DNA of 64,000 bases from contig JACPTK010000025.1 of NCBI GenBank assembly GCA_016192825.1, positions 3,912 to 67,911 of the forward strand, written 5' to 3'. A program made the position numbers and the translations under genes. The notes beneath the pieces were generated by a model. It saw only the letters and a list, made by a program, of their open reading frames with translations. It had not been told where the DNA came from and searched no databases. Below are positions 21,401 through 38,721 of this stretch, piece by piece. The stretch's first letter is position 1. Each line of letters opens with the position of its first letter. The stretch comes from Betaproteobacteria bacterium. GTDB taxonomy: Bacteria; Pseudomonadota; Gammaproteobacteria; Burkholderiales; SG8-41.

Positions 21401-21610
21401 GATACCAGGCTGTAATGAAAACATCGCGGCACCGACTTATCAGAGCGTGCAAGGTCAGAGGGCAGCTCATGTAGGACGTAAGGTTTCGGTCGTTGCGCTG
21501 GTCTATTGCCGTACAGGCGGGAACAAAGACGGCGCGAAGTGAGCAATATGCCCGCTGGTCGTTTGCCGAATTTCAGTGATGTAAATATTTTCTTCTTAAA
21601 GGAGATAGTC

Positions 21611-21853
21611 ATGTTGAAGAAAGCGGTCTACGGTATCGTGGTAATGGGCCTGGTGTTCTCGGCGCAGGGCGCGTCGGCGGAAAATTCATGGAACGACGAG
21701 AAGCACGGCGTGACCGAAGCCATTCTCGAATTGCCCTCGGGAGCGGAAACGCTTCGTTACGCCGCAGCGACGAAGGGGCGGCCCATGGGGCAGGTCCAGG
21801 ATCGGACGCAGTCCAGCGAGAGCCCATTTCCGCCCATCCAGGAGGCCGAATAA
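21611..21853 (+). CDS. Small secreted hypothetical protein
   Basis: An AAGGAGA RBS lies 5 nt before the ATG. The signal peptide is 'MLKKAVYGIVVMGLVFSAQGASA'. No family was recognised. Confidence 0.45.
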   Translation: MLKKAVYGIVVMGLVFSAQGASAENSWNDEKHGVTEAILELPSGAETLRYAAATKGRPMGQVQDRTQSSESPFPPIQEAE

Positions 21854-23490: not shown

Positions 23491-23555
23491 TGCATTCTTC
23501 TCCATGCCGTCAGCGGGAAAAATGCGCGGCCGGCGACAGCCGGCGCGGGGCCCGG

Positions 23556-23741
23556 TCACCGCCCTTCGTCGCGGTCCCGAAAGCGGCGCATGGCAGCGCC
23601 GATGAAATCGAGCTGCCTGCGGAAATTGGCGCAACCACTGCACATCATCAAGTGCAGCGCGAGGCCGAACCGCTCCCACATTCCAAGGCGCCGTTCCCGG
23701 GCCTCCGACAGCAATCTGCTGACTTCCCTGCACGATAGCAT
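23556..23741 (-). CDS. zf-HC2 anti-sigma factor (small)
   Basis: 'MLSCREVSRLLSEA...HLMMCSGCANFRRQ' has the HxxxCxxC motif. It lies immediately downstream of the ECF sigma gene. Confidence 0.7.
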   Translation of the reverse strand: MLSCREVSRLLSEARERRLGMWERFGLALHLMMCSGCANFRRQLDFIGAAMRRFRDRDEGR

Positions 23742-23749
23742 GGCTCCGC

Positions 23750-24319
23750 TCAATCCCGTTCCTTGCCAAACCACTTACTGTCGAGGCACTCGCGCAAGCT
23801 CAAGCGCGCGCGGTGCAACGTCACCCACAGATTGGTCGGCGTGATCGCGAGATCCTTACACACGTCGTCGCTTTCCTGCTCCATGACCTCGCGCATCATG
23901 AATGCACGCGCCGCGCGCGCCGGCATGAGTTCCAGGCAGCGCTCCAGGGTCTCCCAGAACCGCCGGTCTTCGAACGACTTTTCCGGATTGCCCCAGTCGG
24001 ACGGGACCTGGCGCCAGCTGCCGTCGGCCTTGAACAACCCGTCCATCAGCCCGGCATCCGGGTCCTCGTCGTCTTCCGCGAGGGATTGCTCGCGCGACCG
24101 CCTGCGCGTCACGTCGATGATCTTGTGCTTGAGTATGCCGACCGCCCATGTTCGATACGCGGACCTGCCGGAAAACCCGGAGCGCGCGTCAAGCGCCGCG
24201 AGCAACGTTTCCTGTACCACGTCTTCCGCCAGGACAGGGTCCCGCAACTGGCGAATGGCGTAGCGCAAGAGATAGTCGCGCAGTTCCTGCAAGTCTTCGT
24301 CGGCTGGGATGCTCGCCAT
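23750..24319 (-). CDS. ECF-family RNA polymerase sigma-70 factor
   Basis: Region 2 is 'VVQETLLAALDARSGFSGRSAYRTWAVGILKHKIID'. Region 4 is 'ARAFMMREVMEQESDDVCKDLAITPTNLWVTLHRARLSLRECL'. Confidence 0.88.
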   Translation of the reverse strand: MASIPADEDLQELRDYLLRYAIRQLRDPVLAEDVVQETLLAALDARSGFSGRSAYRTWAVGILKHKIIDVTRRRSREQSLAEDDEDPDAGLMDGLFKADGSWRQVPSDWGNPEKSFEDRRFWETLERCLELMPARAARAFMMREVMEQESDDVCKDLAITPTNLWVTLHRARLSLRECLDSKWFGKERD

Positions 24320-24392
24320 GGGGCCTGTTCCGCGAGTGATGCTGTAAACCCTTTGCCATTGTAGCGGAAACAGGGTTCGTTCCTGTTTTCCG

Positions 24393-26495
24393 TTAACGTT
24401 CAGATCCCGCCGGGATTTCCACGCTTCGCCCGAGCTTGCCGGCAATTTCGGACGCCGGCATCGGCTTGGCGAACAGAAAACCCTGAGCTTCCTCGCAGCG
24501 TCTCGCCAGCAGGAAATCGAGCTGCCGCTGTGTTTCCACTCCCTCGGCCACGACCCTCTTGCCGAGGCTGTGGCCCAGGCGAATGATGGCGTCGCATATC
24601 GCGTCCGCGTTGGAATCGCGCCCGATATCGTCAACAAATGACTTATCGATCTTGATGGCATCGATCTCGAGCTGGCGCAGATAGCTGAGTGACGAATAGC
24701 CGGTTCCGAAATCATCTATCGACAGATGCACGCCGAGGCGCCGCAGAGTGGAAAGCACGGTGGCCGTGAGCGCAACATCCTCCATGGCAGCGGATTCGGT
24801 GATCTCGATTTCAAGGAGGCCGGCGTCGATTCCGGCCTCCGCCAGTGCGCGGCGCGCGAGCTCCGGCAGCCTCGGGTCGCGGAATTGCCGTGTGGAGACG
24901 TTGACCGCGACTCTCGGCGGGATCAGCCCCGCGTCACGCCAGCGCCGAATCTGAACGCACGCTTCGCGTAACACCCATTCGCCGATGGCAATGATCTGGC
25001 CGCTCGACTCGGCAACCGGGATGAACTCGCCCGGAGAAACCCATCCACGCGCAGGATGTTTCCAGCGGATCAGGGCCTCGCAGGAGCTGATCGGCCGAGC
25101 GCCGCCGCCGGGATCGAGGGTGACCTTCGGTTGATAAAAAAGCTGCAACTCTCCGCGATCGAGCGCCAGCCGCAGTCCGTGCTCGATCTCCTGGCGCCGC
25201 TGGGCCGCCTGGGTCATCTCCGGCGAGAAGAATTGGTAGCGTGCGCCGGTATCGCCCCGAACGCGGCTCAATACCACCTCGGCGTCGTGGAGGATGGTCT
25301 CCGGCTCGACACAACCCGTGTCCGGGCATGTGATCCCGATCCTGCCACGCAGATGGATTTCGTTGCCCCCAATGACGAGAGGGCGGTCGATCTCGCTCAG
25401 GATGCGCTCGGCGTGCTCCGCCGCCTGTGCCGGGCTGAACGGCCCAGCGCTCACGATGCTGAACTCGTCCCCGCCCAAGCGGGCAATGAACTGCCCCGCG
25501 TTGATTTCATGGCTCAGCCTGCGTGCGACTTCGATCAGAACCTGATCGCCAGCGTGCTGGCCCAACGCGTCGTTGATCGCACTGAAATCGGCCAGATTCA
25601 GCACCAGCACATGCACGTTCTCCCCGCGCTGGCAGGCAGCCGACAGCGTCTGACGCAGATGTTCAAGGAAGAAGTCCCGGTTAGGCAAGCCGGTCAGCGT
25701 GTCGTGGCGAGAGAGAAAGCGCGCGCGTTCTTCTGCGCGCAGCCGGTCGGCGCGTTTGCTTTCCGCAACCCGCATCAGCATCTTGTCATGAGCCTGGAAC
25801 ACTTCGCCAAGTTCGTCGCGCGGGCGCTCGCGGACCTGGTAGTCATCGGCGTGATCGGGATTCGCCGTGGCGCCAAGCATGCTCCGCCGCAACTTGAGTA
25901 TCGGGCTCAACACCGACCGGTAAAGCACCACCATAGTGCCCGTCGTTACCACGGCCACGATGAGCGCGACCAGTCCTGCGATGCGCAACACGAAAGCGAC
26001 AAGCTCGGTATTGACGTGGGAGCTGTCCATGCGCGCGAGAAATACCAGGCGCTCGCTACCCCTGACTACGCTCCAGGCAAGGTCGTAGCAGGTTCCACCC
26101 AGGGTAAGGCGGCTGACTTTATCGCGCTGGCCCCGCAGCACCTCGTCTATCGCGAAATCCGAGAAGTCGGCATCGCCGATCGCCCCGAGGGTTGCGCCGT
26201 CGCTGCGACGGATGCCGAGCGCCAGTATCGGGTTATCGCGCTGCGCCTTGCGCAACAGCTGTTCCAGCTCCCGTGGCCGTGTCAGCGCTTCCTCGCTCAG
26301 CGCCATGGACTGCATCACTGTTATCGCCCGTTGTTCGAGCAGTTGCAGCGCATTGCTCCGGAAGTTGTAGGCCGAGGGGATAAGGATGACGCTCTCGATC
26401 GCGAGAATCAGCAGGAATACGGAAAACGCGACCGACTTGCAGAGACGGCAGTTCCACACGCGCAGCGCGGTTTCGCGTACCGCGTCGGAGTCCAT
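24393..26495 (-). CDS. Membrane sensor GGDEF/EAL protein (diguanylate cyclase/phosphodiesterase)
   Basis: It has two TM segments and a HAMP-like linker. The GGDEF domain has 'GGDEFSIV'. The EAL domain has 'EALIRW...DDFGTGYSSLSYL'. Confidence 0.9.
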   Translation of the reverse strand: MDSDAVRETALRVWNCRLCKSVAFSVFLLILAIESVILIPSAYNFRSNALQLLEQRAITVMQSMALSEEALTRPRELEQLLRKAQRDNPILALGIRRSDGATLGAIGDADFSDFAIDEVLRGQRDKVSRLTLGGTCYDLAWSVVRGSERLVFLARMDSSHVNTELVAFVLRIAGLVALIVAVVTTGTMVVLYRSVLSPILKLRRSMLGATANPDHADDYQVRERPRDELGEVFQAHDKMLMRVAESKRADRLRAEERARFLSRHDTLTGLPNRDFFLEHLRQTLSAACQRGENVHVLVLNLADFSAINDALGQHAGDQVLIEVARRLSHEINAGQFIARLGGDEFSIVSAGPFSPAQAAEHAERILSEIDRPLVIGGNEIHLRGRIGITCPDTGCVEPETILHDAEVVLSRVRGDTGARYQFFSPEMTQAAQRRQEIEHGLRLALDRGELQLFYQPKVTLDPGGGARPISSCEALIRWKHPARGWVSPGEFIPVAESSGQIIAIGEWVLREACVQIRRWRDAGLIPPRVAVNVSTRQFRDPRLPELARRALAEAGIDAGLLEIEITESAAMEDVALTATVLSTLRRLGVHLSIDDFGTGYSSLSYLRQLEIDAIKIDKSFVDDIGRDSNADAICDAIIRLGHSLGKRVVAEGVETQRQLDFLLARRCEEAQGFLFAKPMPASEIAGKLGRSVEIPAGSER

Positions 26496-26634
26496 CGCCG
26501 TCGTGCGCCGGCTGATTACACGAGGAGTCGTTGTCACGTCTTTCCGCCTACCTCGAGATCTCTGAAATCCTAGCAGCCTGTCGGACTTTGATGGCACTTT
26601 CGCATTTTTATCCGGGGTGATTTTGCCTAAGGAG

Positions 26635-26658
26635 CATGTCGGACTCAAGTCCGACATG
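26635..26658. repeat. REP-like palindrome (TGTCGGA...TCCGACA family)
   Basis: It reads CATGTCGGACT-CA-AGTCCGACATG with 11-bp arms. A half-site 'tagcagcctgtcggac' lies at 26571-26586. Confidence 0.7.
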
Positions 26659-26969
26659 CACCTGGTTCTCAATGCCAATACGGATGGAACAGCACCGCGG
26701 ATTCGTTCCAAACTGGTTAGCTTGCGCCGCCTGCGCCCGCTCAAGATTCACAGACAACCCATCCGGCAACTCGTTTCGGTCGCGCGCCGGTGGCAGCAAA
26801 AAAATCGCTGTAAGATTTTGCACCGATTGCCGGTCTTACGCTTGGCGGTTCGCGGGCTGTATTTGCCTTCGTGCGCGAAAGGTGCGCGCCGGTGCCTGCT
26901 GTGTAATGATTTGAACACGGAGCCACCGCTGCCATGCCACCCCGAACCTGCGCGCACGACGGTGCAATC

Positions 26970-28250
26970 ATGAGTCTGTGCTTTCCCGCACTCATTGGCA
27001 TCCTTGCTGTCGCGCTCGCCGCCTGCGGCGACACGGCAAAACCCACAACGCCGGTGAAATCCCCGGCGCAAGCCGCCGCCGTCCAGCTTCCCGCTCCGGA
27101 AATCGAGAAGTTTCTGGATGCCCACTGGGCGCGTCCGATCGCGCCCCAGGGCAAGCCCCCGGCCCGCTTCACTTCCATTGAAGCCGCGCTCGACCCGGAC
27201 TCCTGCGGTAGCTGTCACGTCGCGCAATTCAAGGATTGGAAGGAAAGCCTCCACAGTCGGGCGATGGGCCCCGGCATCCTCGGGCAACTGGTCAATATGT
27301 CACCCGACGCCACGAACGAGCATCAGGATTGCATCCGTTGCCACGCCCCGCTCAAGGAACAAGCCGACAGCCTCGTTGCCGCGCTTGCCCGCGAGCAGGG
27401 CCCTGGTTCCCGTCCTGCGAAGGATTCCGGGCTCGCGCTGCATGAACAGGGACTCGTCTGCGCCGCATGTCACGTGCGTGGCTATCAACGGTATGGGCCG
27501 CCGCGCAAGGACGGATCGGTGCCGGATTCCGCCGCACAGCTTCCGCACAACGGTTGGGTCAGCACCGCAGCGTTCGAAGATTCACGCTTTTGTGCTTCCT
27601 GTCACCAGTTTCCAAAAGACGGCTTCGCCCTGAATGGCAAGCTGCTCGAAAACACCTACGAAGAATGGAAGGCGAGCCGTTACGCGCGCGAAGGCAAGGC
27701 CTGCCAGTCGTGCCACATGCCGGACCGCCGGCACTTGTGGCGCGGGATTCACGACCCCGAGATGGTGAAGGCAGGCGTGGCCATTGACGTGAAGCCGGCT
27801 CGCATCCAGTCAGGCGTTGTGTCGGCCACGCTTACCATCAAGAACACCGGGACCGGACACTACTTCCCCACCTACGTCACCCCTAAAGTGGTGGCGGAAA
27901 CCTACCAGGAGAGCGCGGGAGGGCAAGTGCTGAAAGACACGCTGCGCGAATACATCATCGCCAGGCAGGTATCGCCCGATTTGAGCGCGGAAATTGCCGA
28001 CACCCGAATCGCGCCAGACGAGCAGGCGCTGCTCGACTATCGGGTTCGCCTGCATCGGGACGCGGCGTCGCTGGTATATCGGGTCAGGGTAGAACCGGAC
28101 GCTTTTTATACCGGTCTTTACCGCTCGCTGTTGGCCGGAAAGCAGGCTGGTAAAGGTGAGCGATTGATCGCGCAGGCGTTGAAGGATTCCACGGCGTCAG
28201 CGTTCACGCTGTATTTGCACCGCCAGCCACTGCGAGCTGCCGCGCGCTAA
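26970..28250 (+). CDS. Multihaem c-type cytochrome lipoprotein (five CxxCH motifs)
   Basis: The lipobox is 'LAVALAACGD'. The haem motifs are CGSCH, CIRCH, CAACH, CASCH and CQSCH. Confidence 0.8.
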   Translation: MSLCFPALIGILAVALAACGDTAKPTTPVKSPAQAAAVQLPAPEIEKFLDAHWARPIAPQGKPPARFTSIEAALDPDSCGSCHVAQFKDWKESLHSRAMGPGILGQLVNMSPDATNEHQDCIRCHAPLKEQADSLVAALAREQGPGSRPAKDSGLALHEQGLVCAACHVRGYQRYGPPRKDGSVPDSAAQLPHNGWVSTAAFEDSRFCASCHQFPKDGFALNGKLLENTYEEWKASRYAREGKACQSCHMPDRRHLWRGIHDPEMVKAGVAIDVKPARIQSGVVSATLTIKNTGTGHYFPTYVTPKVVAETYQESAGGQVLKDTLREYIIARQVSPDLSAEIADTRIAPDEQALLDYRVRLHRDAASLVYRVRVEPDAFYTGLYRSLLAGKQAGKGERLIAQALKDSTASAFTLYLHRQPLRAAAR

Positions 28251-29338
28251 TGATTCAGCGACGCCTCGATTTCGGCGAAGGTCTGGACGATGTCCCCGAC
28301 GTGGACCGGCACGCCGAGTTGCCGCGCGATCCGGGAAGTAGAGAATAGACCGCGGACCGCCTGGCAGGAATCGCCCTCCTTTGGTTCCACCACCATCGCG
28401 TGCTGCCGCCGCGCGCGCCTGAGGGTAGCGATAATCTGTCCCACACTGGCGTCAAGCACATCGCGCAGCTGGATGACCTCCAGCATCTCGTGGGGCGTCA
28501 TGATGTCGCGTACTGGGATCTCGCTGTGCTTCACGCCCCTTTCCTGTACGATCTGCATCGGCTTTTCGCCGGGAATGTCGCTTGCCGTGACGATCCCGAG
28601 CACGATATCCGGGCTTTCCACGACCAGCAACAGGCGAATGCCGTTCTCGATCATTTTCCGGTTCGCACCGTCAATGGCCGCCCCGGGATCGATCGTGACG
28701 GCGGCCACCCGCTTGAAATCGGTCACGTCGAGGATCGAGTGAACGTCCTCGTCCCCCTCGATTCCGAGAATTGAGGCTCCGAGAATCTTTTGGGTTTCCG
28801 CATCCACCAGTATCTTCATAAAACCCCGGATCTCGCTGCGCTCCCGGGCGCGGCCCACGCGGGTCATCAGCATCTTGCCGACGAGCGCTTTCCGGCCGGA
28901 AGCGCGGACTTCCGTTTCGGTCGTCCCCGCGCGACCGAGGGGCGGGTCAATATAGAGGGCGTAAGCCGTGACGCGGTCCGTCACCTTGCGGCGGTCACCG
29001 TCGAACAGGTTGGCGGCGATGATCTCGTAATCGTTATAGGAAGTGTGGGTGAAGGCGCCGCGACCGTTGACGTCGCCCAGCGCCCAGACGCCCGGAACAC
29101 TGGTGCGAAGTTCGTCGTCCACGACGACGAAGCCCCGCGCATCCGTATTGACGCCCGCCTGATCGAGGCCAAGGTCATCCGTGTTGGGCACGCGCCCCAC
29201 GGCGATCAGCAGGTGCGAGCCGATGACCTCGTCGGGAGCGGTGTCGCACGTCACTTTCACCGCCACCCGATCGCCGCGCTTTCCCACGCTCACGCACCGG
29301 GCGTTCAAACGCACTTCAACGCCTTCGGCCTCCAGCAT
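28247..29338 (-). CDS. Chimeric protein: N-terminally truncated pyridine-nucleotide-disulfide oxidoreductase fused to a CBS-domain pair
   Basis: It starts at 'MLEAEGVEVRL' with a perfect AAGGAG RBS. It lacks the FAD-binding GxGxxG and the redox CxxxxC. It retains 'GVWALGDVNG' and part of the dimerisation domain ('FMKILVDAETQKILGASILGIEGDE'). It then switches to two CBS-like repeats ('IENGIRLLLVVES...IVTASDI', 'HAMVVEPKEG...GLFSTSRI'). Confidence 0.6.
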   Translation of the reverse strand: MLEAEGVEVRLNARCVSVGKRGDRVAVKVTCDTAPDEVIGSHLLIAVGRVPNTDDLGLDQAGVNTDARGFVVVDDELRTSVPGVWALGDVNGRGAFTHTSYNDYEIIAANLFDGDRRKVTDRVTAYALYIDPPLGRAGTTETEVRASGRKALVGKMLMTRVGRARERSEIRGFMKILVDAETQKILGASILGIEGDEDVHSILDVTDFKRVAAVTIDPGAAIDGANRKMIENGIRLLLVVESPDIVLGIVTASDIPGEKPMQIVQERGVKHSEIPVRDIMTPHEMLEVIQLRDVLDASVGQIIATLRRARRQHAMVVEPKEGDSCQAVRGLFSTSRIARQLGVPVHVGDIVQTFAEIEASLNH

Positions 29339-29738
29339 TTAGTCTCCTTACCGCGTGCCGTCGTCGCCGGTTGGATCCGCCGTTTCAGCGTTTGGCCTCC
29401 CCTGCCAATTCAACGGGTTGGAGCAACCCACCGGGGTTGTAGAAAAGCAGCACCAATGTAAGGTTTTCCCTGTCTTGCCGGTCTTTAATCCTGCGAGACG
29501 GCACGATACGTGTCGGCGTGTCAATGCGGGCATAGAGCCCGTTACGGCGGGCATTACGGTCGCAGATGCCGCGGCGTGGTGAAGGGGCGATCTTCGAAAT
29601 GAAAAGAAATGTAAGTTTTGGGTCTTTCCTTCGACTTACCTGCCAGGGCGCGCGTCTGCGTGCGCTCGAGTTCGCATGCAGGCTGAGACCGCAGGCATTT
29701 TGAGTGATCCCAACACCGATATCGAGAGGAGACAGTTC

Positions 29739-30023
29739 ATGCAAAAGATTCAACAGAAATCGCTGGTCAAGTCCCTGGTTTCCACCGGAATTCTGGCGCT
29801 CGCCATGAGCGCCCCCGCCGCGGTCGCCGCAAACCCGTGCAATCCGTGCGCGGCCAAGCCCACGGCATCGAAGGCGGGCGCCAATCCGTGCGCGGCGAAG
29901 AACCCGTGCGCCGCCAAGAACCCCTGCGCCGTGAAGACAACTAGCGCAAAAAAGAAGACGGCAAACCCTTGCGCCGCGAAGAATCCCTGCGCCGCAAAGA
30001 ACCCGTGCGCGGCCAAGAAGTAA
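29739..30023 (+). CDS. Small secreted protein made of NPCAAK hexapeptide repeats
   Basis: RBS is GAGAGGAGA. The signal peptide is '...ALAMSAPAAVA'. The mature part contains 8 Cys, all within N-P-C (ANPCNPCAAK..ANPCAAKNPCAAKNPCA...ANPCAAKNPCAAKNPCAAKK). Confidence 0.7.
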   Translation: MQKIQQKSLVKSLVSTGILALAMSAPAAVAANPCNPCAAKPTASKAGANPCAAKNPCAAKNPCAVKTTSAKKKTANPCAAKNPCAAKNPCAAKK

Positions 30024-30057
30024 CGAGTCGGACAAACCCGGAAATGGAGGATAGAAC

Positions 30058-30780
30058 ATGCGTCTCGAGCTAAAACCGATCGTGCGGTCGCTGGTCTCCG
30101 CCGGCGTGATGACGCTGGCACTGGGCATGCCGGCGGCCTTCGCTGCGAATCCCTGTAATCCTTGCGCGGCCAAGCCAATGGCGTCGAAGAAGGGTGCCAA
30201 TCCGTGCGCAGCCAAGAACCCGTGTGCAGCGAAGAACCCGTGTGCAGCAAAGAACCCGTGCGCGGCAAGAAACCCCTGCGCTGCGGGCGACAAGGTGGAT
30301 CCCAGGCGAGTAACGCGGCCCAAGGGCTACAAACCGTTCAAGGCCGATCGTGCGACTCTGGTCAAAGAAGGCGGAGTATTGTGGAAGGACACCAAGCTGA
30401 GCTCCAATGGCCTGGCGTGCAATACTTGCCATGTGAACAACGCGGCGTTTGCCCCGACTTTCTCCAAACCGTACCCCCATCAAGTCGCGATGGCAAAGGA
30501 AAAAGGCGGCGTCAAGCAGGTGCATTTGGACGAAATGGTGCAGTTCTGCATGGTGGTGCCGATGGCCACCAAGCCGCTCGGATGGAATTCGCGCCAGCTT
30601 GCGGCGCTGACGGCGTATACCGCGGACGTGCAGAAGAAGTTCAAACCGGGAAAGACCGCGGCAGCCAACCCCTGTGCCGCGAAGAACCCGTGCGCAGCCA
30701 AAAACCCGTGCGCAGCGAAAAACCCGTGCGCGGCGAAAAATCCGTGCGGGGCAAGGAACCCGTGCGCAGCGAAAAAATAA
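30058..30780 (+). CDS. Monohaem cytochrome c domain protein flanked by N- and C-terminal NPCAAK repeat arrays
   Basis: Its signal peptide is paralogous to the preceding gene. There are 7 NPC units, then a core with 'LACNTCHVNN' (CxxCH) and 'FCMVVPMA', then 6 more NPC units ending in 'AAKK'. Confidence 0.75.
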   Translation: MRLELKPIVRSLVSAGVMTLALGMPAAFAANPCNPCAAKPMASKKGANPCAAKNPCAAKNPCAAKNPCAARNPCAAGDKVDPRRVTRPKGYKPFKADRATLVKEGGVLWKDTKLSSNGLACNTCHVNNAAFAPTFSKPYPHQVAMAKEKGGVKQVHLDEMVQFCMVVPMATKPLGWNSRQLAALTAYTADVQKKFKPGKTAAANPCAAKNPCAAKNPCAAKNPCAAKNPCGARNPCAAKK

Positions 30781-30862
30781 GCGGGGCAAGCTGCGGGCAA
30801 TAAAACGCGTCGGACAGACACGCCCCTGAATTGTTCAGCCGATTAATGCGGGCGCGCAAAGG

Positions 30863-31657
30863 ATGAATCTCGCTCCCCCTGTTGACGGCGCCGCACGCGG
30901 GACGCGCGAATCCGGTGTGGAACCGCCGTTCGCTTCCTCTTTACCGCCATCCGGTGGCCAGCTGTCACCGCCCGTTCTCGGCGCACTCCCGAAACGGCGA
31001 CTGCGGGCCATGCTCATGGCGGGCGCCGAGGTGCTCGAATGTCAGCGTGTGCTGTCCGGGGGAGGGATCAACCTGGTAAGCGAGGTCTTGCGGGACCAGG
31101 GTGAATTCGTCGAGTACGAGCATTACCCGAGGAGCGACGTCTACGACTCCGAATCCGGCGCGCAGTACTACTACCACGCACACCGAGCCGGGGAGCACGG
31201 ACACTTTCACACGTTTCTGAGGGTGAACACAGGAAACACGGACGGTTCGCCTGCGGGGGACGGCCTGAATAGCAGTGAACCCGTGCATCTCATCGCGATC
31301 TCCATGGACGCCTATGGCTGGCCGATCGGCCTGTTTGCGACCAATCACTGGGTTTGCGGCGGCGCCTGGCGTTCGGCGGAGGAGGTGATCGAGCTGCTGC
31401 CTCGCTTTCGCATCGATCACGCCTTTCCGTCGTGGCCGGTCAACCGCTGGATCGGAGCGATGATGGTGCTGTTCCGGCCGCACATCGAAGCTTTGTTGAC
31501 CCACCGCGACGCGGTGATCGGCGCCTGGGCGAGGGCCCATCCCGGCAGAGACGTGTTCGAAGACCGGGAACTCGGGGTGACGGGATACCTGCCGATCTCG
31601 GTCGAGGACCAGATACTCGAGGTGCGCACTCCCGCGGGTGCTCGCCGCTCGTTGTGA
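30863..31657 (+). CDS. Conserved hypothetical protein with His-rich motif
   Basis: 264-aa ORF with coding-like composition. The motif is 'YYYHAHRAGEHGHFHTF'. The start is uncertain and no family is assigned. Confidence 0.45.
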   Translation: MNLAPPVDGAARGTRESGVEPPFASSLPPSGGQLSPPVLGALPKRRLRAMLMAGAEVLECQRVLSGGGINLVSEVLRDQGEFVEYEHYPRSDVYDSESGAQYYYHAHRAGEHGHFHTFLRVNTGNTDGSPAGDGLNSSEPVHLIAISMDAYGWPIGLFATNHWVCGGAWRSAEEVIELLPRFRIDHAFPSWPVNRWIGAMMVLFRPHIEALLTHRDAVIGAWARAHPGRDVFEDRELGVTGYLPISVEDQILEVRTPAGARRSL

Positions 31658-31694: not shown

Positions 31695-32165
31695 ATGAGC
31701 CGCACCAGAATCCTCTTCGCCTTTGCGGGCGGCGTGCTTGCGGCATCCTCGCTCGCGCCGCTCGCCGGCCCGGCCGCCGCGGCGCAGCTCATCGAGCTGA
31801 CCCAGGTGCCGTGCCAGTTTCTGGAGAGCGAAGGCGGTGTTGACCGCGGCTACAAGTCGCGCTCGATCAAGGATTGCGAGGCGATCAATGCCAGAACCGG
31901 CAAGGACCGCGTGGCAAAGGCGAAACCGCTGGAGCTTAAATCCGGGAAGTACGTGTTTCGCGTGGCCAACAAGAACGTGCCGTACGAGCTGGGCTTCTGG
32001 CTGCGCGGCGCCTCCGCGGCGGGCCGGGTGACACTGCCCAGCGTCTCCGGCGGCGGCCTCATGCCAGGTAAAACCCGCGACTACGAGATTGAGCTCAAGG
32101 CCGGCGAATATGCCTATTCGTGCCCGCTCAATACCACCCCCGACTACAAACTGATCGTGCGATAG
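31695..32165 (+). CDS. Secreted cupredoxin-like (EfeO N-terminal 'Cup'-like) domain protein
   Basis: It has a signal peptide. The C-terminal 'KAGEYAYSCPLNTTPDYKLIV' resembles the EfeO Cup-domain end 'GEY..TCGL..NPKGKLIV'. Confidence 0.5.
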   Translation: MSRTRILFAFAGGVLAASSLAPLAGPAAAAQLIELTQVPCQFLESEGGVDRGYKSRSIKDCEAINARTGKDRVAKAKPLELKSGKYVFRVANKNVPYELGFWLRGASAAGRVTLPSVSGGGLMPGKTRDYEIELKAGEYAYSCPLNTTPDYKLIVR

Positions 32166-32295
32166 CATCTGCCGAGAGCGGGCATGCGTATCATTAGCAG
32201 CCTGTCGGCTCGGAGATAACCAGGAGCGATGTCCCATGCATTCACCCCGATCGTTGATCACGCCAAGTCCGACAGGCTGCTAGGTGGAGGAATTC

Positions 32296-32778
32296 ATGGT
32301 TTCAAAGTCAACCCGCTTTGTGCTGCTGGTCATGGGTCTATCCGTGCTCATCGGTACTGGACCAGCGCGGGGTGCAGAAACAGCTCTGCCGGAAACGGTG
32401 ACCATCAAAACCCGCCACGGGTTTGATGCGCTGGTAAACCGCGTCGAGAAAGCAGTGGCGCGCCACCAGATGGGACTGATCGCCCTGGCGAGCGCCAGTC
32501 GCGGCGCCGCGGCGCGCGGCGTGAAAATACCGGGCAATGCGGTGCTGATGGTGTTCCGCAACGACTACGCGGTGCGCATGCTTCAGGCAAGCGTGCCGGC
32601 GGGAATCGAGGCGCCGCTGCGGATTTACGTCACCGAGAATCCGGACGGCACCGCGAGCGTAACCTACCGCCAGCCAGGCGCCGTGTTCGCGCCGTACCGC
32701 AACCCTGGGCTGGACACCCTGGCAGACGAGCTCGATGTCGTATTCCGGAATATCGTCAACGACGCCGCCGGAGGCTGA
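32296..32778 (+). CDS. DUF302 domain protein (secreted)
   Basis: It has a signal peptide. The body has 'GFDALVNRVEKAVARHQMGLIA...PGNAVLMVFRNDYAVRML...IEAPLRIYV', typical of DUF302. Confidence 0.65.
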   Translation: MVSKSTRFVLLVMGLSVLIGTGPARGAETALPETVTIKTRHGFDALVNRVEKAVARHQMGLIALASASRGAAARGVKIPGNAVLMVFRNDYAVRMLQASVPAGIEAPLRIYVTENPDGTASVTYRQPGAVFAPYRNPGLDTLADELDVVFRNIVNDAAGG

Positions 32779-33934: not shown

Positions 33935-34019
33935 GCGCGCTTCCCCGATGGCGGTCGCCGGGCGCGCTTCCCCGCCGATGCAATCGCCGCAGCGTAATGT
34001 GCACAAACGGAGTGGACGC

Positions 34020-35177
34020 ATGCGACAACTCGACGTGAATCGCGCCGTTCCGCGGTGGACGATCGCAGCCGCAGCACTGCTGGCCTGGGGTGCGGCCCTG
34101 CCGGCGGACGCGCAGCCGACGGATGAGTGGCCGCGCACCGATTTCAGCAAGCGGACGGTTCCGCTCGAGGAAATCCGTTCCGGGGGCCCTCCCAAGGATG
34201 GCATCCCGGCGATCGACCGCCCACGATTTGTTACGCCCGACGAGGCGGGCAGGTGGCTCGACCGGCGGGAGCCCGTGATCGTGTTCGAGCGCTATGGAGA
34301 CGCCCGCGCCTACCCGCTTCAGATCCTGATGTTTCACGAGATCGTCAACGACACCGTCGGCGGCGCGGCGGTCGCCGTCACGTTCTGCCCGCTCTGCAAT
34401 GCCTCAATCGTCTTCGACCGCGTCGTCAAGGGCGCCGTGCTCGATTTCGGCACGACCGGCAAGCTGCGCAAGAGCGACCTCGTCATGTATGACCGCCGGA
34501 CCGAAAGCTGGTGGCAGCAGTTCACCGGCAAAGGCATCGTCGGCCGCTACGCAGGAATCGAACTCAAGCAATTGCCGGCAACAATAACCACGTTCGCGGA
34601 CTTTCGAAAAGCGTACCCGCAGGGGCGCGTGCTGTCGCGCCAGACCGGCTTCAGCCGCCCGTACGGGAAAAATCCCTACCGCGGATACGATCGCGTCGGC
34701 GACATGCCGTTTTTGTTTTCCGATCCCGTCGATCCGCGGCTGCCGGCGATGGAACGCGTGCTGGGCGTCTCGTCCGGCGGCAGGTCGCGCATCTATCCGT
34801 TTGCCGCGCTCGCGGCGCTTCGCGTTGTCAACGACCAGATCGGGACCGATCCCATCGCGGTTTTCACCGTTGAGGGCATGCTCTCGGCGCTCGATGCCGA
34901 GGTCATACGCGACTCACGACGGATACCCGCGGCCGCCGCTTACAGCCGGAGATCCGGCGCGCGCACCCTGAGTTTCGAGTCGCGCGGAGAAGGGATTTTC
35001 GACCGCGAAACGGGCTCCGAATGGGATATCTTCGGCAGGGCGATTGCCGGACCCTTGAGGGGCCAGCGCCTGAAGCCTGCCGACAGCGGTGTGCATTTCG
35101 CGTTCGCCTGGCTCGCGTTCAATCCACAGTCGGAGATCTTCTCTCCGGCCGCGGCATCCACGCCGGCGCGACGCTGA
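34020..35177 (+). CDS. DUF3179 domain protein (secreted)
   Basis: 'GGPPKDGIPAIDRPRF...ARAYPLQILMFHEIVNDTVGG..VAVTFCPLCNASIVFDR'. Confidence 0.75.
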   Translation: MRQLDVNRAVPRWTIAAAALLAWGAALPADAQPTDEWPRTDFSKRTVPLEEIRSGGPPKDGIPAIDRPRFVTPDEAGRWLDRREPVIVFERYGDARAYPLQILMFHEIVNDTVGGAAVAVTFCPLCNASIVFDRVVKGAVLDFGTTGKLRKSDLVMYDRRTESWWQQFTGKGIVGRYAGIELKQLPATITTFADFRKAYPQGRVLSRQTGFSRPYGKNPYRGYDRVGDMPFLFSDPVDPRLPAMERVLGVSSGGRSRIYPFAALAALRVVNDQIGTDPIAVFTVEGMLSALDAEVIRDSRRIPAAAAYSRRSGARTLSFESRGEGIFDRETGSEWDIFGRAIAGPLRGQRLKPADSGVHFAFAWLAFNPQSEIFSPAAASTPARR

Positions 35178-36408: not shown

Positions 36409-36918
36409 ATGTTCACTGGCAAACAATCAAAGTTCGAGACGATGGTCAGGGCCTACTCCGCCGAGCTTTACCGCTATGCCTACTGGATGTGCCGTGACCG
36501 TTTCCTCGCCGAGGACCTCGTCCAGGACACATTCACCCGCGCATGGCAGGCGTGGGATGGGTTGCGTGACGACAAGGCGGCGCGGAGCTGGCTTTACACC
36601 ATTCTCCGAAACGAGCGTGCGCGCCTGTTCGAGCGCAAGCGCCTGGAAATCGATGAAGCCCAGGAGCTGGACGATCTGATCGACGCCTCGAGTGCGGGCC
36701 CCCACGAAGACCTGGAGATGCGACAGCTGCTCTCGGCTCTGCCGGTCGGCTACCGTGAGCCGCTCGTCCTGCAGGTGCTAGGCGGCCACAGTTGCGCCGA
36801 AATAGCGCGGATAATGGACATCAGCGAAGGCGCGGTGATGACGCGTCTGACGCGCGCCAGGCTGGCATTGCGGAAACTGCCAGGGATCGCGGCAACGCGC
36901 AAGGCGAAAAGCGTATGA
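36409..36918 (+). CDS. ECF-family RNA polymerase sigma factor
   Basis: 'AEDLVQDTFTRAWQAWDGLRDDKAARSWLYTILRNE' and 'PLVLQVLGGHSCAEIARIMDISEGAVMTRLTRARLAL'. Confidence 0.88.
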   Translation: MFTGKQSKFETMVRAYSAELYRYAYWMCRDRFLAEDLVQDTFTRAWQAWDGLRDDKAARSWLYTILRNERARLFERKRLEIDEAQELDDLIDASSAGPHEDLEMRQLLSALPVGYREPLVLQVLGGHSCAEIARIMDISEGAVMTRLTRARLALRKLPGIAATRKAKSV

Positions 36919-37619
36919 ACTGCTTCGAATTCCGGAAACTGTTGCTCGCGGACCCCCGTGCCCGAACGTCAGGGCAGGATCGGCACCTTGCGGAGTGCCC
37001 CGCGTGCGCGAACGTGGCGCGCGAGATGGAAAACCTCGAAGCCCGTGTCCACGACGCGATGCGGGTGCCGGTACCGGAGGCGCTGGCGGAACGCGTGCTG
37101 CTGCGGCAGAAGACACGCGTCCCCGCGCTGCGCGTATGGGCCCTGGCGGCATCGCTGGTGGCGGCGATTGGTGCCGGAGCCTATTTCTATCGCACCGCAG
37201 GCAACACGGAAGAACCGATGCTCGTGGCCGCGACACTTGGCCAGAACCATCCCGCAGTCGCGGCAATTGCCTACGTGGTGGATCACGAACCGCAACTGCT
37301 CAGGGAAGGCCGCAGCGGCGACCCGGCGGTGATGCGGAGCGCCCTCGTGAAGCTCGGTTTGAAGCTGCCGGCCAATGGCGTCACGGTGCGGTATCTGGGC
37401 AAGTGCCCCGTGCCCAGCGGCACCGGCGAGCACATCGTGCTGCAAACCGCCCTCGGGCAGGTCACGCTTATCCTGGTGCCCAACCACCCGTTGGGACCGC
37501 GCGTGACGGTAATGGACCGGCAGATGACGGCCCTGGCCAGTCCCGCGCGGCTCGGAGGCTACATCCTGGTCGCCGACTCGCTCGACCACGTCAGACGCAT
37601 CGAGAAGATGCTGATGTGA
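36915..37619 (+). CDS. DUF3379-family anti-sigma factor
   Basis: Its ATG overlaps the sigma gene stop (ATGA). It has 'MNCFEFRKLLLADPR...HLAECPACANVAREME' followed by one TM helix. Confidence 0.75.
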   Translation: MNCFEFRKLLLADPRARTSGQDRHLAECPACANVAREMENLEARVHDAMRVPVPEALAERVLLRQKTRVPALRVWALAASLVAAIGAGAYFYRTAGNTEEPMLVAATLGQNHPAVAAIAYVVDHEPQLLREGRSGDPAVMRSALVKLGLKLPANGVTVRYLGKCPVPSGTGEHIVLQTALGQVTLILVPNHPLGPRVTVMDRQMTALASPARLGGYILVADSLDHVRRIEKMLM

Positions 37620-38124: not shown

Positions 38125-38721
38125 TTACCTGGCATGCACACCGGGATTCCAGCCAGCTGCCGCAAGGTGTTTGCGAGCGAATTCGAGCGGATGGTCCTCG
38201 AGCTGGGTGGCAAGCGTGTCGTTCCAGCGGTTCATCCAGCCGAAGAGCGCGATGACGGACACGATCTCGATGATCGCGTCCTCGGAGAAATGCTTTTTCA
38301 ACTCGACGAAGTGCGCGTCGGTCACCGACGGCGGGCAGCCGCCCACCGCCAACGCGAGGCTCAGCGCCGCGCGCTCTGCTGCGGTGAAAAACGGGCTCGA
38401 CTGGAACTGCCACAATGCGTGGAGCTTGTCTCCGGATACCTTGCCCCGCTCCACGAGGTTCTCCGCGTTGTGGGCCGTGCAGTAGCGGCATCCCGCCGCG
38501 TTGCTGACCACCTCGCCGACCATGAACTTGAGCGCAGGCGGCACTTCGCCCGGGTCACTCATTACGGCCTCACGCAGATCGCGTAGCGCGCGAAAAACCC
38601 GCGGCCTGCGGGCAAGCGTGAGCCAACTGTTGGGAACGTAACCGCGCTGTTTTTTCGACTTATCAAAGTCCGCCGCGAACTCGGCAAGGCGATCCGCCGG
38701 TGGGGGTGAAACCCTAGCCAT
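38125..38721 (-). CDS. AhpD/CMD-like protein, Cys (CxxC) form
   Basis: An uninterrupted 198-aa ORF with 'AAGCRYCTAHNAE'. It is collinear with the two TGA-containing copies. Confidence 0.85.
   Translation of the reverse strand: MARVSPPPADRLAEFAADFDKSKKQRGYVPNSWLTLARRPRVFRALRDLREAVMSDPGEVPPALKFMVGEVVSNAAGCRYCTAHNAENLVERGKVSGDKLHALWQFQSSPFFTAAERAALSLALAVGGCPPSVTDAHFVELKKHFSEDAIIEIVSVIALFGWMNRWNDTLATQLEDHPLEFARKHLAAAGWNPGVHAR

What the first reader, a model, noticed from the sequence alone, without database searches (positions are those of the whole stretch)
29739..30780. Tandem secreted proteins built from NPCAAK hexapeptide (18-bp) repeats, one embedding a c-type haem domain
Two adjacent genes share paralogous signal peptides and the opening sequence 'AANPCNPCAAKP.ASK.GANPCAAKNPCAAK'.

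The first gene (95 aa) is almost nothing but repeats, with 8 Cys that are all in an N-P-C context.

The second gene (240 aa) places 7 units before and 6 units after a monohaem cytochrome c core (CNTCH).

Regularly spaced Cys every 6 residues on Lys-rich tails looks like a flexible polythiol arm attached to an electron-transfer domain. Candidate roles are a metal or metalloid (Cu, Hg, As, Se) sponge, or a sulfane-sulfur carrier. I cannot match the repeat to a described family.

The repeat also creates long spurious antisense ORFs at 29385..30323 and 30070..30789.
Basis: partly seen in the sequence, partly recalled or inferred. Interest (0 to 1): 0.8.

Follow-up and report, generated by a model that had tools for sequence, protein, structure and literature searches.

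The report
Secreted polycysteine proteins with unknown partner
Two real, exported proteins built from NPCAAK cysteine repeats (one carrying a SoxA/TsdA-like haem domain) belong to a widespread, undescribed stress operon that always pairs such repeats with a cytoplasmic protein of unknown fold (DUF6969) and is wired like, and often sits beside, the copper-buffering bufferin genes.

Summary
geneA (29739-30023) and geneB (30058-30780) are paralogous Sec-exported proteins made of NPCAAK units, and geneB embeds one CNTCH haem domain. The repeats are translated and under purifying selection: 15 identical units are encoded by 14 different 18-mers.

New findings:
- The haem core is SoxA/TsdA-type. Its invariant Cys164 aligns with the Cys114 haem ligand of SoxA. 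The database name "cytochrome c peroxidase" is not supported.
- Relatives occur in 456 species genomes, always with Cys arms of variable length.
- The tightest partner is DUF6969, the next gene. It is a His-rich cytoplasmic protein whose confident model matches no solved fold. In loci picked by DUF6969 alone, 69 of 80 have an NPC-repeat gene directly upstream.
- A conserved ECF-type promoter, TGTAAGG-N16-CGAC, precedes the operon. The same motif precedes adjacent bufferin operons.
- One bufferin precursor carries an NPCAAK tail and has DUF6969 next to it.

Best reading: an ECF-controlled periplasmic polythiol buffer against thiophilic metals or metalloids, coupled to redox chemistry through a His/Cys haem. 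This is inferred, not shown. A SoxAX/SoxY-like sulfur-carrier role and Cys modification by DUF6969 remain open.

The parts
29459..29486 (+). ECF-type promoter-like motif, copy 1 (TGTAAGGTTTTCCCTGTCTTGCCGGTCT)
   Evidence: Found by the motif scan. The same class of motif lies upstream of NPC genes in 41 of 74 loci, against 0.044 expected per 750 nt.
29610..29636 (+). ECF-type promoter-like motif, copy 2 (TGTAAGTTTTGGGTCTTTCCTTCGACT), about 100 nt upstream of geneA
   Evidence: One search finds 2 matches in the window against 0.09 expected by chance. The motif resembles the ECF16 sites GTAACC-N16-CGAA (PMC3511200) and TGTAAC..CGAAT (PMC6180224).
29739..30023 (+). geneA: Sec-exported, haem-less NPCAAK-repeat protein (94 aa, 8 Cys)
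   Evidence: One search finds 140 small homologues, all 'hypothetical' and without any Pfam domain.
30058..30780 (+). geneB: Sec-exported monohaem cytochrome c with NPCAAK arms. Signal peptide 30058-30144, N-arm 30145-30285, haem core 30286-30657, C-arm 30658-30777.
30418..30432 (+). CNTCH haem-binding motif (C121, C124, H125)
   Evidence: Invariant in 52 sequences.
30547..30549 (+). Codon of invariant Cys164, candidate distal haem ligand
   Evidence: The family motif 'DEMVQxC' aligns with 'EQMINAC' of SoxA 1h31_A. In that alignment the CxxCH His is residue 80 and the Cys is residue 114.
30863..31657 (+). DUF6969 protein: cytoplasmic, His-rich, new fold, obligate partner of NPC-repeat genes. 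The start codon is uncertain; a database gene call starts at M50.
   Evidence: Pfam E 1.2e-75.
31695..32165 (+). Secreted 156-aa protein, weakly cupredoxin-like, with 3 invariant Cys
   Evidence: Present in 30 of 85 loci. Pfam Cupredoxin_1 E 0.014. EfeO cupredoxin domain E 0.88.
32284..32778 (+). Secreted DUF302 protein; its end overlaps the start of the transporter gene
   Evidence: DUF302 genes sit between soxA and soxB in Acidithiobacillia (PMC5037610).
32735..33934 (+). YeeE/YedE-family (Sulf_transp) membrane transporter
   Evidence: Pfam E 1.1e-64. Present in 48 of 85 loci. The best NCBIfam match is YedE/FdhT, below its cut-off.
33948..35177 (+). Secreted DUF3179 protein with an FCPLC motif
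   Evidence: Selenocysteine (UxxC) variants of this family are listed in PMC9312934.
35193..35992 (+). Peptidase_C92 (YiiX)-like protein; start codon uncertain
36409..36918 (+). ECF sigma factor
   Evidence: Syntenic in related loci.
36915..37619 (+). Anti-sigma factor (DUF3379) with the zinc-anti-sigma motif HLAECPAC
38125..38721 (-). CMD/AhpD-like protein with a CxxC motif
   Evidence: Present in 16 loci.
26934..28250 (+). Secreted pentahaem c554/MtrC-like cytochrome, a recurrent neighbour
   Evidence: Present in 21 of 85 loci. It directly follows NPC genes in L001, L002 and L170.
29385..30323 (-). Antisense ORF (312 aa), judged spurious
   Evidence: Listed. Selection and homology lie on the + strand.
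30070..30789 (-). Antisense ORF (239 aa), judged spurious
   Evidence: Listed. Selection and homology lie on the + strand.

Best explanation
geneA and geneB are the exported products of a conserved stress operon. The operon is probably driven by an ECF sigma factor.

After Sec export and signal-peptide cleavage, the mature proteins start directly with the first NPC unit. They expose flexible, Lys-rich arms that carry one thiol every 5-6 residues.

Proposed mechanism (inferred): the arms act as a periplasmic polythiol buffer. They capture thiophilic species or are consumed by them. Candidates are Cu, Cd, Hg and Au ions, and possibly chromate-, selenite- or tellurite-type oxyanions attracted by the lysines.

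In geneB the arms are tethered to a SoxA/TsdA-type c haem that is probably His/Cys-ligated. This haem could couple thiol-bound chemistry to the electron-transfer proteins encoded nearby. The chemistry could be S-S or S-X bond formation, or reduction of a bound ion. The nearby proteins are the pentahaem c554-like cytochrome and the cupredoxin-like 156-aa protein.

DUF6969 is the invariably adjacent cytoplasmic His-rich protein. It is proposed to act on the NPC units before export, as a holdase or a modifying enzyme.

Shown: gene reality, export signals, repeat conservation, haem-domain class, operon conservation, the promoter motif and the linkage to bufferin operons.

Inferred: the ligand, the redox role of the haem and what DUF6969 does.
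For: Reality and export.

Family breadth
- 1512 homologues, with 0-19 N-terminal and 0-18 C-terminal units.
- Relatives in 456 species genomes.

Haem class
- Pfam SoxA-TsdA_cyt-c, E 9.5e-6.
- Foldseek top hits are TsdA, then SoxA.
- C164 aligns with SoxA Cys114.

DUF6969 partnership
- It is present in 73 of 85 geneB-picked loci, typically as the next gene downstream.
- 59 of 72 DUF6969 copies have an NPC ORF directly upstream.
- In loci picked by DUF6969 alone, 69 of 80 have one.
- The pairing holds even in S. meliloti, with a degenerate PCAA protein.
- DUF6969 has no signal peptide or transmembrane segment, and it has many invariant His, Glu and Asp residues.

Stress regulation
- The TGTAAGG-N16-CGAC motif lies upstream of NPC genes in 41 of 74 loci, against 0.044 expected. 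It occurs in 32 of 58 independent metagenome loci.
- ECF sigma and zinc-anti-sigma pairs are syntenic with the operon.

Metal link
- bufABC(D) operons sit directly downstream of the module in L029, L031, L053, L129, L161, L163 and L153.
- The same promoter motif precedes bufA1 in 7 of 8 of these operons.
- In L168, a BufA1 precursor with a C-terminal NPCAAK tail lies next to DUF6969.
- Bufferins are Sec-exported, SigF-regulated copper chelators (PMC11626156).
- The ECF16 promoter consensus is similar (PMC3511200, PMC6180224).
Against: - No metal-binding, expression or phenotype data exist for any member.
- Only about 5% of loci (8 of 171) have a bufferin operon nearby. Only one fusion was found.
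- The strict conservation of N-P-C-A around each Cys is more than simple thiolate chelation needs.
- The haem domain, DUF302 and the YeeE-like transporter point at least as much to sulfur chemistry as to metals.
- The window's sigma/anti-sigma pair is of the DUF3379 type, not SigF/NrsF. It lies 5.6 kb away, and it has not been shown to recognise the motif.
- S. meliloti RpoE7 (ECF16) fusions did not respond to Cd, chromate or H2O2 in the one study read (PMC6180224).
- The SoxA alignment that places C164 on the ligand Cys is statistically weak (E 0.011).
Confidence: 0.45

Rival explanations
1. Sulfur-carrier reading. The haem domain works like SoxAX or TsdA. It would oxidatively attach thiosulfate or sulfane sulfur to the Cys thiols of its own arms and of geneA, which would play the role of the SoxY swinging arm. 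The bound sulfur would then be handed to the YeeE/SoxT-like transporter for import.
For: - The haem core is of SoxA/TsdA type, with the ligand Cys aligned.
- A YeeE-family transporter is present in 48 of 85 loci and is kept even in S. meliloti.
- DUF302 is translationally coupled to the transporter gene. DUF302 genes occur between soxA and soxB (PMC5037610).
- YeeE-like SoxT proteins import sulfur (PMC11582611, abstract).
- Many hosts are sulfur oxidisers: tubeworm symbionts, Sedimenticolaceae and Gallionellaceae.
Against: - Many hosts are not sulfur oxidisers (Pseudomonas, Methylotenera, Nitrosomonas, Accumulibacter).
- Minimal loci lack the transporter and DUF302 (Pseudomonas).
- There is no SoxX-like partner, second haem, SoxB, rhodanese or TusA in the cluster.
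- Half of the NPC proteins next to DUF6969 have no haem domain.
- ECF/zinc-anti-sigma control and the bufferin linkage fit stress better than energy metabolism.
Confidence: 0.2
2. Modification reading. DUF6969 is a new metalloenzyme that chemically modifies the Cys of each N-P-C-A unit in the cytoplasm before Sec export, as MNIO enzymes do for bufferins. The mature arms would then carry a modified residue rather than free thiols.
For: - The gene order is near-obligate: NPC gene, then DUF6969, with small or negative gaps.
- DUF6969 follows the NPC tail even when the tail is attached to a BufA1 precursor.
- DUF6969 is cytoplasmic. It has invariant residues H87, H105, H107, H114, H116, H142 and H186 and several Glu/Asp. 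H105/H107, H114/H116 and H142 lie on three predicted strands.
- The motif around each Cys is strictly conserved while spacing and copy number vary.
- There is a precedent for Sec-exported, cytoplasmically modified Cys peptides (PMC11626156).
Against: - DUF6969 has no detectable similarity to any enzyme or solved fold.
- No RiPP recognition element, protease or dedicated partner is present.
- Cytochrome c maturation of geneB needs an unfolded Sec substrate, but this does not exclude small modifications.
- The evidence is contextual only.
Confidence: 0.2
3. Oxidant-scavenger reading. The CCP/MauG-like haem reduces peroxide or another oxidant with electrons taken from the arm thiols. The arms would then be re-reduced by DsbD, thioredoxin, DUF3179 or AhpD-like proteins.
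For: - The N-terminal half of the core matches the peroxidatic haem domain of dihaem CCP, MauG and MbnH (E 3e-4 to 6e-3).
- Neighbours include thioredoxin plus DsbD, AhpC/redoxin, CMD/AhpD-like with CxxC and DUF3179 with CPLC.
- Zinc-anti-sigma factors often sense thiol oxidation (established knowledge of RsrA and ChrR).
Against: - There is only one haem and no CCP second domain.
- The match to CCP covers about 35 residues only.
- A His/Cys haem is a poor peroxidase.
- This reading does not explain DUF6969 or the transporter.
Confidence: 0.1
4. Artefact reading. The repeats are non-coding or mis-framed simple sequence, and the ORFs are artefacts.
For: High-GC repeats give long ORFs in several frames. 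At least one database protein (P0366) contains an out-of-frame read of such repeats.
Against: - All differences between units are synonymous.
- Signal peptides are conserved.
- The core domain is conserved in frame between the two arms in more than 1500 proteins.
Confidence: 0.01

Closest known systems
Bufferins (BufA1/DUF2282 and BUF_6/12Cys precursors with MNIO BufB and BufC; the gig operons)
   Same: - Small Cys-containing proteins with Sec signal peptides that act in the periplasm.
- Operons driven by ECF16-type promoters (TGTAAC..CGAA against TGTAAGG..CGAC here).
- Physically adjacent to the NPC module in 8 loci.
- One BufA1 carries an NPCAAK tail (PMC11626156).
   Different: - There is no sequence similarity between NPC repeats and the DUF2282 or BUF_6/12Cys cores.
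- No MNIO or DUF2063 gene lies in the window.
- The partner is DUF6969, a different and unknown fold.
- NPC proteins are repetitive and predicted disordered, whereas bufferins are small folded domains.
- Copper binding is untested here.
SoxA (SoxAX) and TsdA thiosulfate-oxidising cytochromes
   Same: - Same haem-domain class by Pfam (PF21342) and by fold search.
- The invariant Cys is at the position of the SoxA Cys haem ligand.
- Periplasmic location.
- Neighbourhood with a YeeE/SoxT-like transporter and DUF302.
   Different: - One haem instead of two, and no SoxX.
- Far below the SoxA equivalog cut-off (23.5 against 110 bits).
- Carries Cys-repeat arms that SoxA and TsdA lack.
- Not in a sox cluster.
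Bacterial dihaem cytochrome c peroxidases, MauG and MbnH (the name most databases give geneB relatives)
   Same: The 'G..LF.D..LS.NG..SC..CH' segment matches the N-terminal haem domain.
   Different: - A single CXXCH and about 120 core residues instead of about 320.
- Pfam CCP_MauG is below its cut-off (20 against 25.6 bits).
- There is no second haem domain, so the annotation 'cytochrome c peroxidase' is an over-extension.
SoxY sulfur-carrier arm and periplasmic or cytosolic Cys-rich metal proteins (MerP, Csp1, metallothioneins)
   Same: The concept is shared: thiols on an exposed segment carry sulfur or soft metals.
   Different: There is no GGCGG motif, no CxxC ferredoxin-like fold, no four-helix bundle and no Cys-x-Cys clusters. 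Here single Cys residues sit in N-P-C-A-A-K beads.

Membership tests
c-type cytochrome (periplasmic, Ccm/Sec-dependent) | CXXCH haem-attachment motif | tested here: met
   One CNTCH at residues 121-125, invariant in 52 sequences.
c-type cytochrome (periplasmic, Ccm/Sec-dependent) | N-terminal export signal | tested here: met
   Signal peptide with an AFA|A cleavage site, conserved in 74 homologues.
c-type cytochrome (periplasmic, Ccm/Sec-dependent) | Covalently bound haem in the mature protein | not testable with these tools
   Needs haem staining or mass spectrometry.
SoxA/TsdA cytochrome c domain (PF21342) | Score at or above the Pfam gathering threshold | tested here: inconclusive
   The window protein scores 26.0 bits against a cut-off of 27 (E 9.5e-6). 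Most homologues carry precomputed PF21342 hits.
SoxA/TsdA cytochrome c domain (PF21342) | Cys as distal haem ligand (His/Cys haem) | tested here: inconclusive
   Invariant C164 aligns with Cys114 of SoxA 1h31_A, but the alignment is weak (E 0.011). No spectroscopy is available.
SoxA/TsdA cytochrome c domain (PF21342) | Fold similarity to TsdA or SoxA | tested here: met
   The top nine Foldseek PDB hits are TsdA or TsdBA. SoxA follows at ranks 10-11. E-values are modest (6e-3 to 7e-2) because the disordered arms are part of the model.
SoxA (TIGR04484 equivalog) / SoxAX complex | Equivalog score, SoxX partner and sox gene cluster | tested here: not met
   23.5 bits against a cut-off of 110. No sox genes lie among the neighbours.
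TsdA thiosulfate dehydrogenase | Two haem domains (His/Cys plus His/Met-Lys) | tested here: not met
   There is a single CXXCH, and the core is only about 120 residues.
Dihaem cytochrome c peroxidase / MauG (PF03150) | Two CXXCH motifs and a full-length CCP_MauG match | tested here: not met
   One CXXCH. Pfam scores 20 bits against a cut-off of 25.6, over residues 105-134 only. PDB profile hits cover about 35 residues.
Bufferins (MNIO-modified RiPP metallophores) | Precursor of the DUF2282 or BUF_6/12Cys family | tested here: not met
   No Pfam hit for geneA, or for geneB outside the haem core. Only P0302 combines DUF2282 with an NPC tail.
Bufferins (MNIO-modified RiPP metallophores) | Adjacent MNIO (DUF692) and DUF2063 genes | tested here: not met
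   tblastn with BufB and BufC finds nothing in the window. They are present in 8 of 171 loci.
Bufferins (MNIO-modified RiPP metallophores) | Sec signal peptide on the Cys-bearing product and ECF16-type promoter | tested here: met
   Signal peptides. The TGTAAGG-N16-CGAC motif is shared with adjacent buf operons. Recognition by a sigma factor is not shown.
Bufferins (MNIO-modified RiPP metallophores) | Copper binding and protection from copper stress | not testable with these tools
   Needs biochemistry and genetics.
NPC-repeat / DUF6969 module (defined here) | Secreted protein with at least 3 x-P-C-A-x units directly upstream of a DUF6969 gene on the same strand | tested here: met
   In the window, geneB ends at 30780 and DUF6969 starts at 30863. 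The same arrangement holds for 59 of 72 and 69 of 80 DUF6969 copies elsewhere.
SoxY-type sulfur carrier | C-terminal GGCGG swinging arm and SoxZ partner | tested here: not met
   The sequences end in NPCAAKK. No SoxYZ genes are nearby.

The most novel reading that the evidence does not exclude
The NPC repeat and DUF6969 form a new two-part protein-modification or handling system. DUF6969 would be a cytoplasmic metalloenzyme of a previously unseen fold. It would recognise each N-P-C-A bead and convert or load its Cys before Sec export. The bead string would be a portable periplasmic module that evolution has attached to nothing, to a SoxA/TsdA-like haem domain, or to a bufferin. This would be a second, MNIO-independent route to exported modified-cysteine metallophores.
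Probability: 0.2. Interest if true: 0.9.

Novelty: new variant of a known kind. Interest (0 to 1): 0.72.

Why it matters
- The module is common. Relatives of geneB occur in 456 of about 185,000 species genomes. DUF6969 has 1230 clusters at 50% identity. Yet it is entirely uncharacterised and largely mis-named 'cytochrome c peroxidase'.
- It occurs in environmentally important bacteria: iron and sulfur oxidisers, nitrifiers, Accumulibacter, tubeworm symbionts, Pseudomonas and rhizobia.
- It appears to belong to the same envelope stress response as the recently discovered bufferins.
- If the arms buffer copper or other soft metals, this is a second widespread periplasmic metal-defence device. 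It would also be a natural example of a polythiol tether fused to a redox centre.
- If DUF6969 modifies the repeats, it is a new enzyme family and a new class of exported modified proteins.
- The work also gives DUF6969 its first functional context. It supplies testable handles in tractable organisms (Stutzerimonas/Pseudomonas, S. meliloti pSymB).

Tried and rejected
- Direct sequence search of geneB against the PDB gave nothing.
- A profile of the C-terminal half of the core alone gave only noise.
- DUF6969 gave no PDB sequence hit and no structural match (best Foldseek E 0.3).
- Paper searches for 'NPCAAK' and 'DUF6969' returned 0 papers. 'DUF3379' returned one irrelevant paper.
- The ECF classification paper had no relevant text and no held supplements.
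- Rfam found no RNA family in 28900-31000. No sigma-70 promoter was found in 29300-32300. Base composition shows no island.
- Mercury resistance. A true merR-merF-merA set lies next to the module in Gallionella. The window's own oxidoreductase is a truncated non-MerA fragment. Pyr_redox neighbours sit at variable distance and orientation. I treat this as supportive of a metal context only.
- Iodate-reductase connection. This was suggested by hosts such as Denitromonas iodatirespirans. No idr-like context was seen, so it was dropped.
- Arsenic. An LMW-PTP/ArsC-like gene follows DUF6969 only in one Pseudomonas clade.
- Selenium. The best NCBIfam hits of the transporter and the pentahaem cytochrome are YedE/FdhT and ExtKL, but both are far below their cut-offs. 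This is kept only as a possible ligand.
- A fixed solenoid structure for the arms was rejected. Cys spacing varies (3, 5, 6 or more residues) and pLDDT is below 55.
Full report
**1. The observation**

- geneA (29739-30023, +) encodes 94 aa: a signal peptide, then NPCNPCAAK..., with 8 Cys, all in N-P-C.
- geneB (30058-30780, +) encodes 240 aa: a signal peptide, seven NPC units, a roughly 120-residue core with one CNTCH (30418-30432), then six NPC units.
- Tandem Repeats Finder reports four 18-bp arrays.
- The two N-terminal halves, signal peptides included, are 64% identical over 87 aa, so the genes are paralogues.
- The antisense ORFs 29385-30323 and 30070-30789 exist.

**2. Are the repeats translated?**

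Yes.

- The 15 canonical NPCAAK units of the two genes are written with 14 different 18-mers. Every difference is synonymous.
- GC3 is 0.73-0.80 in the + frame, against 0.64 for the window.
- A search of 5.8 billion proteins finds 1512 relatives of geneB. All that I read keep a conserved core between in-frame Cys repeats.
- Among the 120 best relatives the number of units ranges from 0 to 19 before the core and 0 to 18 after it. Copy number therefore evolves freely while the unit is held.
- In 74 genomic homologues the N-terminus is a Sec signal peptide ending in AxA, followed at once by the first PC motif.
- The antisense ORFs are by-products of GC-rich repeats. One database protein (P0366) even starts with an out-of-frame read of such repeats.

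**3. The haem core**

- The best Pfam hit is SoxA-TsdA_cyt-c (26.0 bits, cut-off 27). The second is CCP_MauG, weak and below its cut-off.
- The best NCBIfam hit is SoxA, far below the equivalog cut-off.
- An alignment of 52 sequences shows these invariant residues: C121, C124, H125, F135, P140, H141, M145, M160, Q162, C164, M169 and W176.
- The AlphaFold2 model is confident for residues ~80-200 (pLDDT >90). It is not confident for the arms.
- Foldseek against the PDB ranks TsdA first and SoxA next. Hydrazine synthase gamma, MauG and CCPs follow.
- A family profile hits the N-terminal haem domain of dihaem peroxidases, MauG and MbnH over about 35 residues (E 3e-4). It hits Rhodovulum SoxA over the whole core.
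- With a trimmed profile, the SoxA alignment places the CxxCH histidine on chain residue 80. It places the invariant C164 ('DEMVQxC') on residue 114 ('EQMINAC').
- From my own knowledge of the SoxAX structure (Bamford et al. 2002), His80 and Cys114 are the ligands of SoxA haem 1.
- The alignment is statistically weak (E 0.011). I therefore call a His/Cys haem likely, not shown.
- The protein has one haem and about 120 core residues. It is neither SoxA nor TsdA nor a dihaem peroxidase. The common database name 'cytochrome c peroxidase' is an over-extension.

**4. Neighbourhood**

A scan of one genome per species finds relatives in 456 genomes, and I fetched 80 loci. Most hosts are Betaproteobacteria: Burkholderiales, Gallionellaceae, Methylotenera, Nitrosomonas, and Dechloromonas/Thauera/Azoarcus. 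Others are Pseudomonas/Stutzerimonas, Sedimenticolaceae and tubeworm symbionts, Motiliproteus, a Rhodospirillaceae and a Rokubacterium.

tblastn with the window's proteins gave these counts across 85 loci:

| Neighbour | Loci with it (of 85) |
|---|---|
| DUF6969 | 73 |
| YeeE/YedE-family transporter | 48 |
| DUF302 | 34 |
| Secreted 156-aa protein | 30 |
| Sigma factor | 29 |
| DUF3179 | 28 |
| Pentahaem c554-like cytochrome | 21 |

- DUF6969 is typically the very next gene.
- De novo clustering added an ECF sigma with zf-HC2 or DUF3379 anti-sigma factors, CMD/AhpD-like, HD_5, Peptidase_C92-like and MerR-type regulators.
- The window holds all of these in one array from 26934 to 38721.
- Its sigma/anti-sigma pair is syntenic in the closest loci.

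**5. DUF6969 is the partner of the repeat, not of the haem**

- Where DUF6969 is not behind geneB, a second, haem-less NPC gene sits in front of it. Overall 59 of 72 DUF6969 copies have an NPC ORF directly upstream on the same strand.
- For the reciprocal test I picked 80 metagenome loci by DUF6969 alone. 69 have an NPC-repeat ORF directly upstream: 39 with the haem core and 30 without it.
- The small haem-less proteins form their own family of 'hypothetical' 70-125-aa proteins. They reach into Nitrospinota, Binatia, Tectimicrobiota and Cyanobacteria, where the member I read has a lipoprotein-type signal sequence.
- In S. meliloti a distant DUF6969 (about 40% identity) is preceded by an unannotated secreted ORF with APCAAGAPCSAAAPCAAGAP. 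On pSymB a YeeE-like gene precedes that ORF.

Properties of DUF6969:

- 4541 database relatives and 1230 clusters at 50% identity.
- No signal peptide or transmembrane segment.
- Invariant E59, C60, E84, H87, D92, D95, H105, H107, E111, H114, H116, H142 and H186. H105/H107, H114/H116 and H142 lie on three predicted strands.
- A confident model (pTM 0.82) that matches nothing in the PDB by fold or by sequence.
- Some relatives are tandem doubles. Others are fused to a coiled coil, a membrane helix and an SH3-like domain. This agrees with a cytoplasmic, membrane-proximal location.

**6. Regulation**

- Upstream of the NPC genes lies a conserved motif, TGTAAGG-N16/17-CG(A/T/G)C(T/C). It occurs in 41 of 74 loci against 0.044 expected per 750 nt. 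It also occurs in 32 of 58 independent metagenome loci.
- The window has two copies before geneA, at 29459-29486 and 29610-29636. A stricter pattern finds 2 matches in 64 kb against 0.09 expected.
- No sigma-70 promoter was found.
- The motif resembles ECF16 promoters: GTAACC-N16-CGAA for Caulobacter sigmaF (PMC3511200), and TGTAAC...CGAAT for S. meliloti RpoE7 (PMC6180224).
- Those two sigma factors drive the DUF692/DUF2063 operons now known as bufferin operons (PMC11626156).
- Anti-sigma factors next to the module carry the zinc-anti-sigma motif: HLAECPAC in the window, and a 75-aa soluble HLRMCPRC protein in Pseudomonas.

**7. Link to bufferins**

- One hit of the geneA search (P0302, Methylohalobius) is a BufA1/DUF2282 bufferin precursor with a C-terminal NPCAAK tail.
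- Its locus reads DJ-1 | DUF6969 | bufA1-NPC | bufB | bufC | doxX. The same TGTAAGG..CGACT motif lies in front of bufA1.
- In seven further loci a complete bufABC(D) operon follows the module on the same strand. It follows geneB-DUF6969-DUF302-YeeE in L029, L031, L053, L129, L161 and L163, and NPC-DUF6969 in L153.
- 7 of the 8 buf operons carry the motif.
- Bufferins are Sec-exported Cys peptides. They are modified in the cytoplasm, accumulate in the periplasm and protect against copper (PMC11626156).

**8. Interpretation**

Shown:

- A widespread operon encodes exported NPC-repeat proteins, with or without a SoxA/TsdA-type haem.
- DUF6969 is invariably associated with them.
- The operon has an ECF-type promoter and is frequently linked, physically and by promoter, to bufferin genes.

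Inferred, best estimate 0.45: the arms are a periplasmic polythiol buffer for thiophilic metals or metalloids. In geneB the haem couples them to redox partners. DUF6969 handles the repeats before export.

Alternatives:

- The sulfur-carrier reading (0.2) rests on the haem class, the YeeE/SoxT-like transporter and DUF302 (PMC5037610, PMC11582611).
- The modification reading (0.2) rests on the obligate gene pair and the strict N-P-C-A context.
- An oxidant-scavenger reading (0.1) rests on the CCP-like segment and the thiol-oxidoreductase neighbours.

These readings are not mutually exclusive, and none is tested.

**9. Novelty and score**

- I could find no paper on the repeat or on DUF6969.
- The haem domain belongs to a known superfamily. 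The general idea, an exported Cys-rich stress protein under ECF control, has the bufferins as precedent. I therefore file it as a new variant of a known kind.
- The repeat/DUF6969 pair itself has no described counterpart.
- Interest is 0.72. The module is common, sits in ecologically important bacteria, is mis-annotated, and gives several direct experiments.

Noticed in passing
window 28247..29338 (-): This ORF is only the C-terminal half (model positions 220-430 of 459) of an FAD-dependent pyridine nucleotide-disulfide oxidoreductase. It runs in frame into a CBS domain. The N-terminal ~220 aa are missing, and only ~400 nt separate it from geneA. It looks like a gene remnant or rearrangement scar at the left edge of the operon.
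   Followed up: partly
window 21411..21437 (+) and ORF within 21506..21853 (+): A third copy of the ECF-type motif (TGTAATGAAAACATCGCGGCACCGACT) lies ~170 nt upstream of a small secreted, Cys-free ORF (MLKKAVYGIVVMGLVFSAQGASA...). It may be another member of the same regulon.
   Followed up: partly
window 29459..29636; L009, L013, L017: Two promoter-like motif copies lie in tandem upstream of the first NPC gene, 153 nt apart in the window and 70-90 nt apart in three relatives. The two copies are of two sequence subtypes (GGTTT..CCGGTCT and GGAA..CGACT). This may mean two promoters or two sigma factors.
   Followed up: no
L171 3786..5567 (S. meliloti 2011 pSymB); L172 (pSymA): An unannotated 124-aa secreted ORF with PCAA motifs and a proline-rich tail lies between a YeeE-like gene and a DUF6969 homologue. 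pSymA carries a partial duplicate that includes only the last codons of the transporter gene.
   Followed up: partly
L168 3620..7221 (Methylohalobius crimeensis): A bufferin operon whose BufA1 precursor ends in five NPCAAK-type units plus one degenerate unit without Cys, with DUF6969 immediately upstream. The called bufA1 start looks truncated next to a poly-A run.
   Followed up: partly
P0377, P0388, P0431, P0366 (50% representative library): DUF6969 occurs as a tandem double domain. It also occurs fused to a coiled coil, a membrane helix and an SH3-like C-terminal domain. The N-terminus of P0366 is an out-of-frame translation of NPC repeats, so it is a gene-call error.
   Followed up: no
window 26934..28250 (+): A pentahaem cytochrome (CGSCH, CIRCH, CAACH, CASCH, CQSCH). 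Its best NCBIfam match is the Geobacter multihaem (seleno)protein ExtKL, far below the cut-off. Homologues directly follow NPC genes in several loci.
   Followed up: partly
L004/L005 10999..13116 (Gallionella): A genuine merR-merF-merA set (MerA 890 bits) lies about 1 kb beyond the YeeE-like gene that follows geneB.
   Followed up: partly
L057 8852..12074 (Pseudomonas sp. XK-1); L051, L079, L082: A minimal version of the module. It has a divergent ECF sigma plus a 75-aa soluble zinc-anti-sigma protein, then geneB, DUF6969 and an LMW-PTP/ArsC-like gene. The transporter, DUF302 and the 156-aa protein are absent.
   Followed up: partly
window 22090..26744 (-): Upstream of the cluster lie an adenylate/guanylate cyclase-domain membrane protein, a 321-aa sigma-70-family protein and a GGDEF-EAL protein. 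GGDEF-EAL genes recur near the module in 16 of 85 loci.
   Followed up: no
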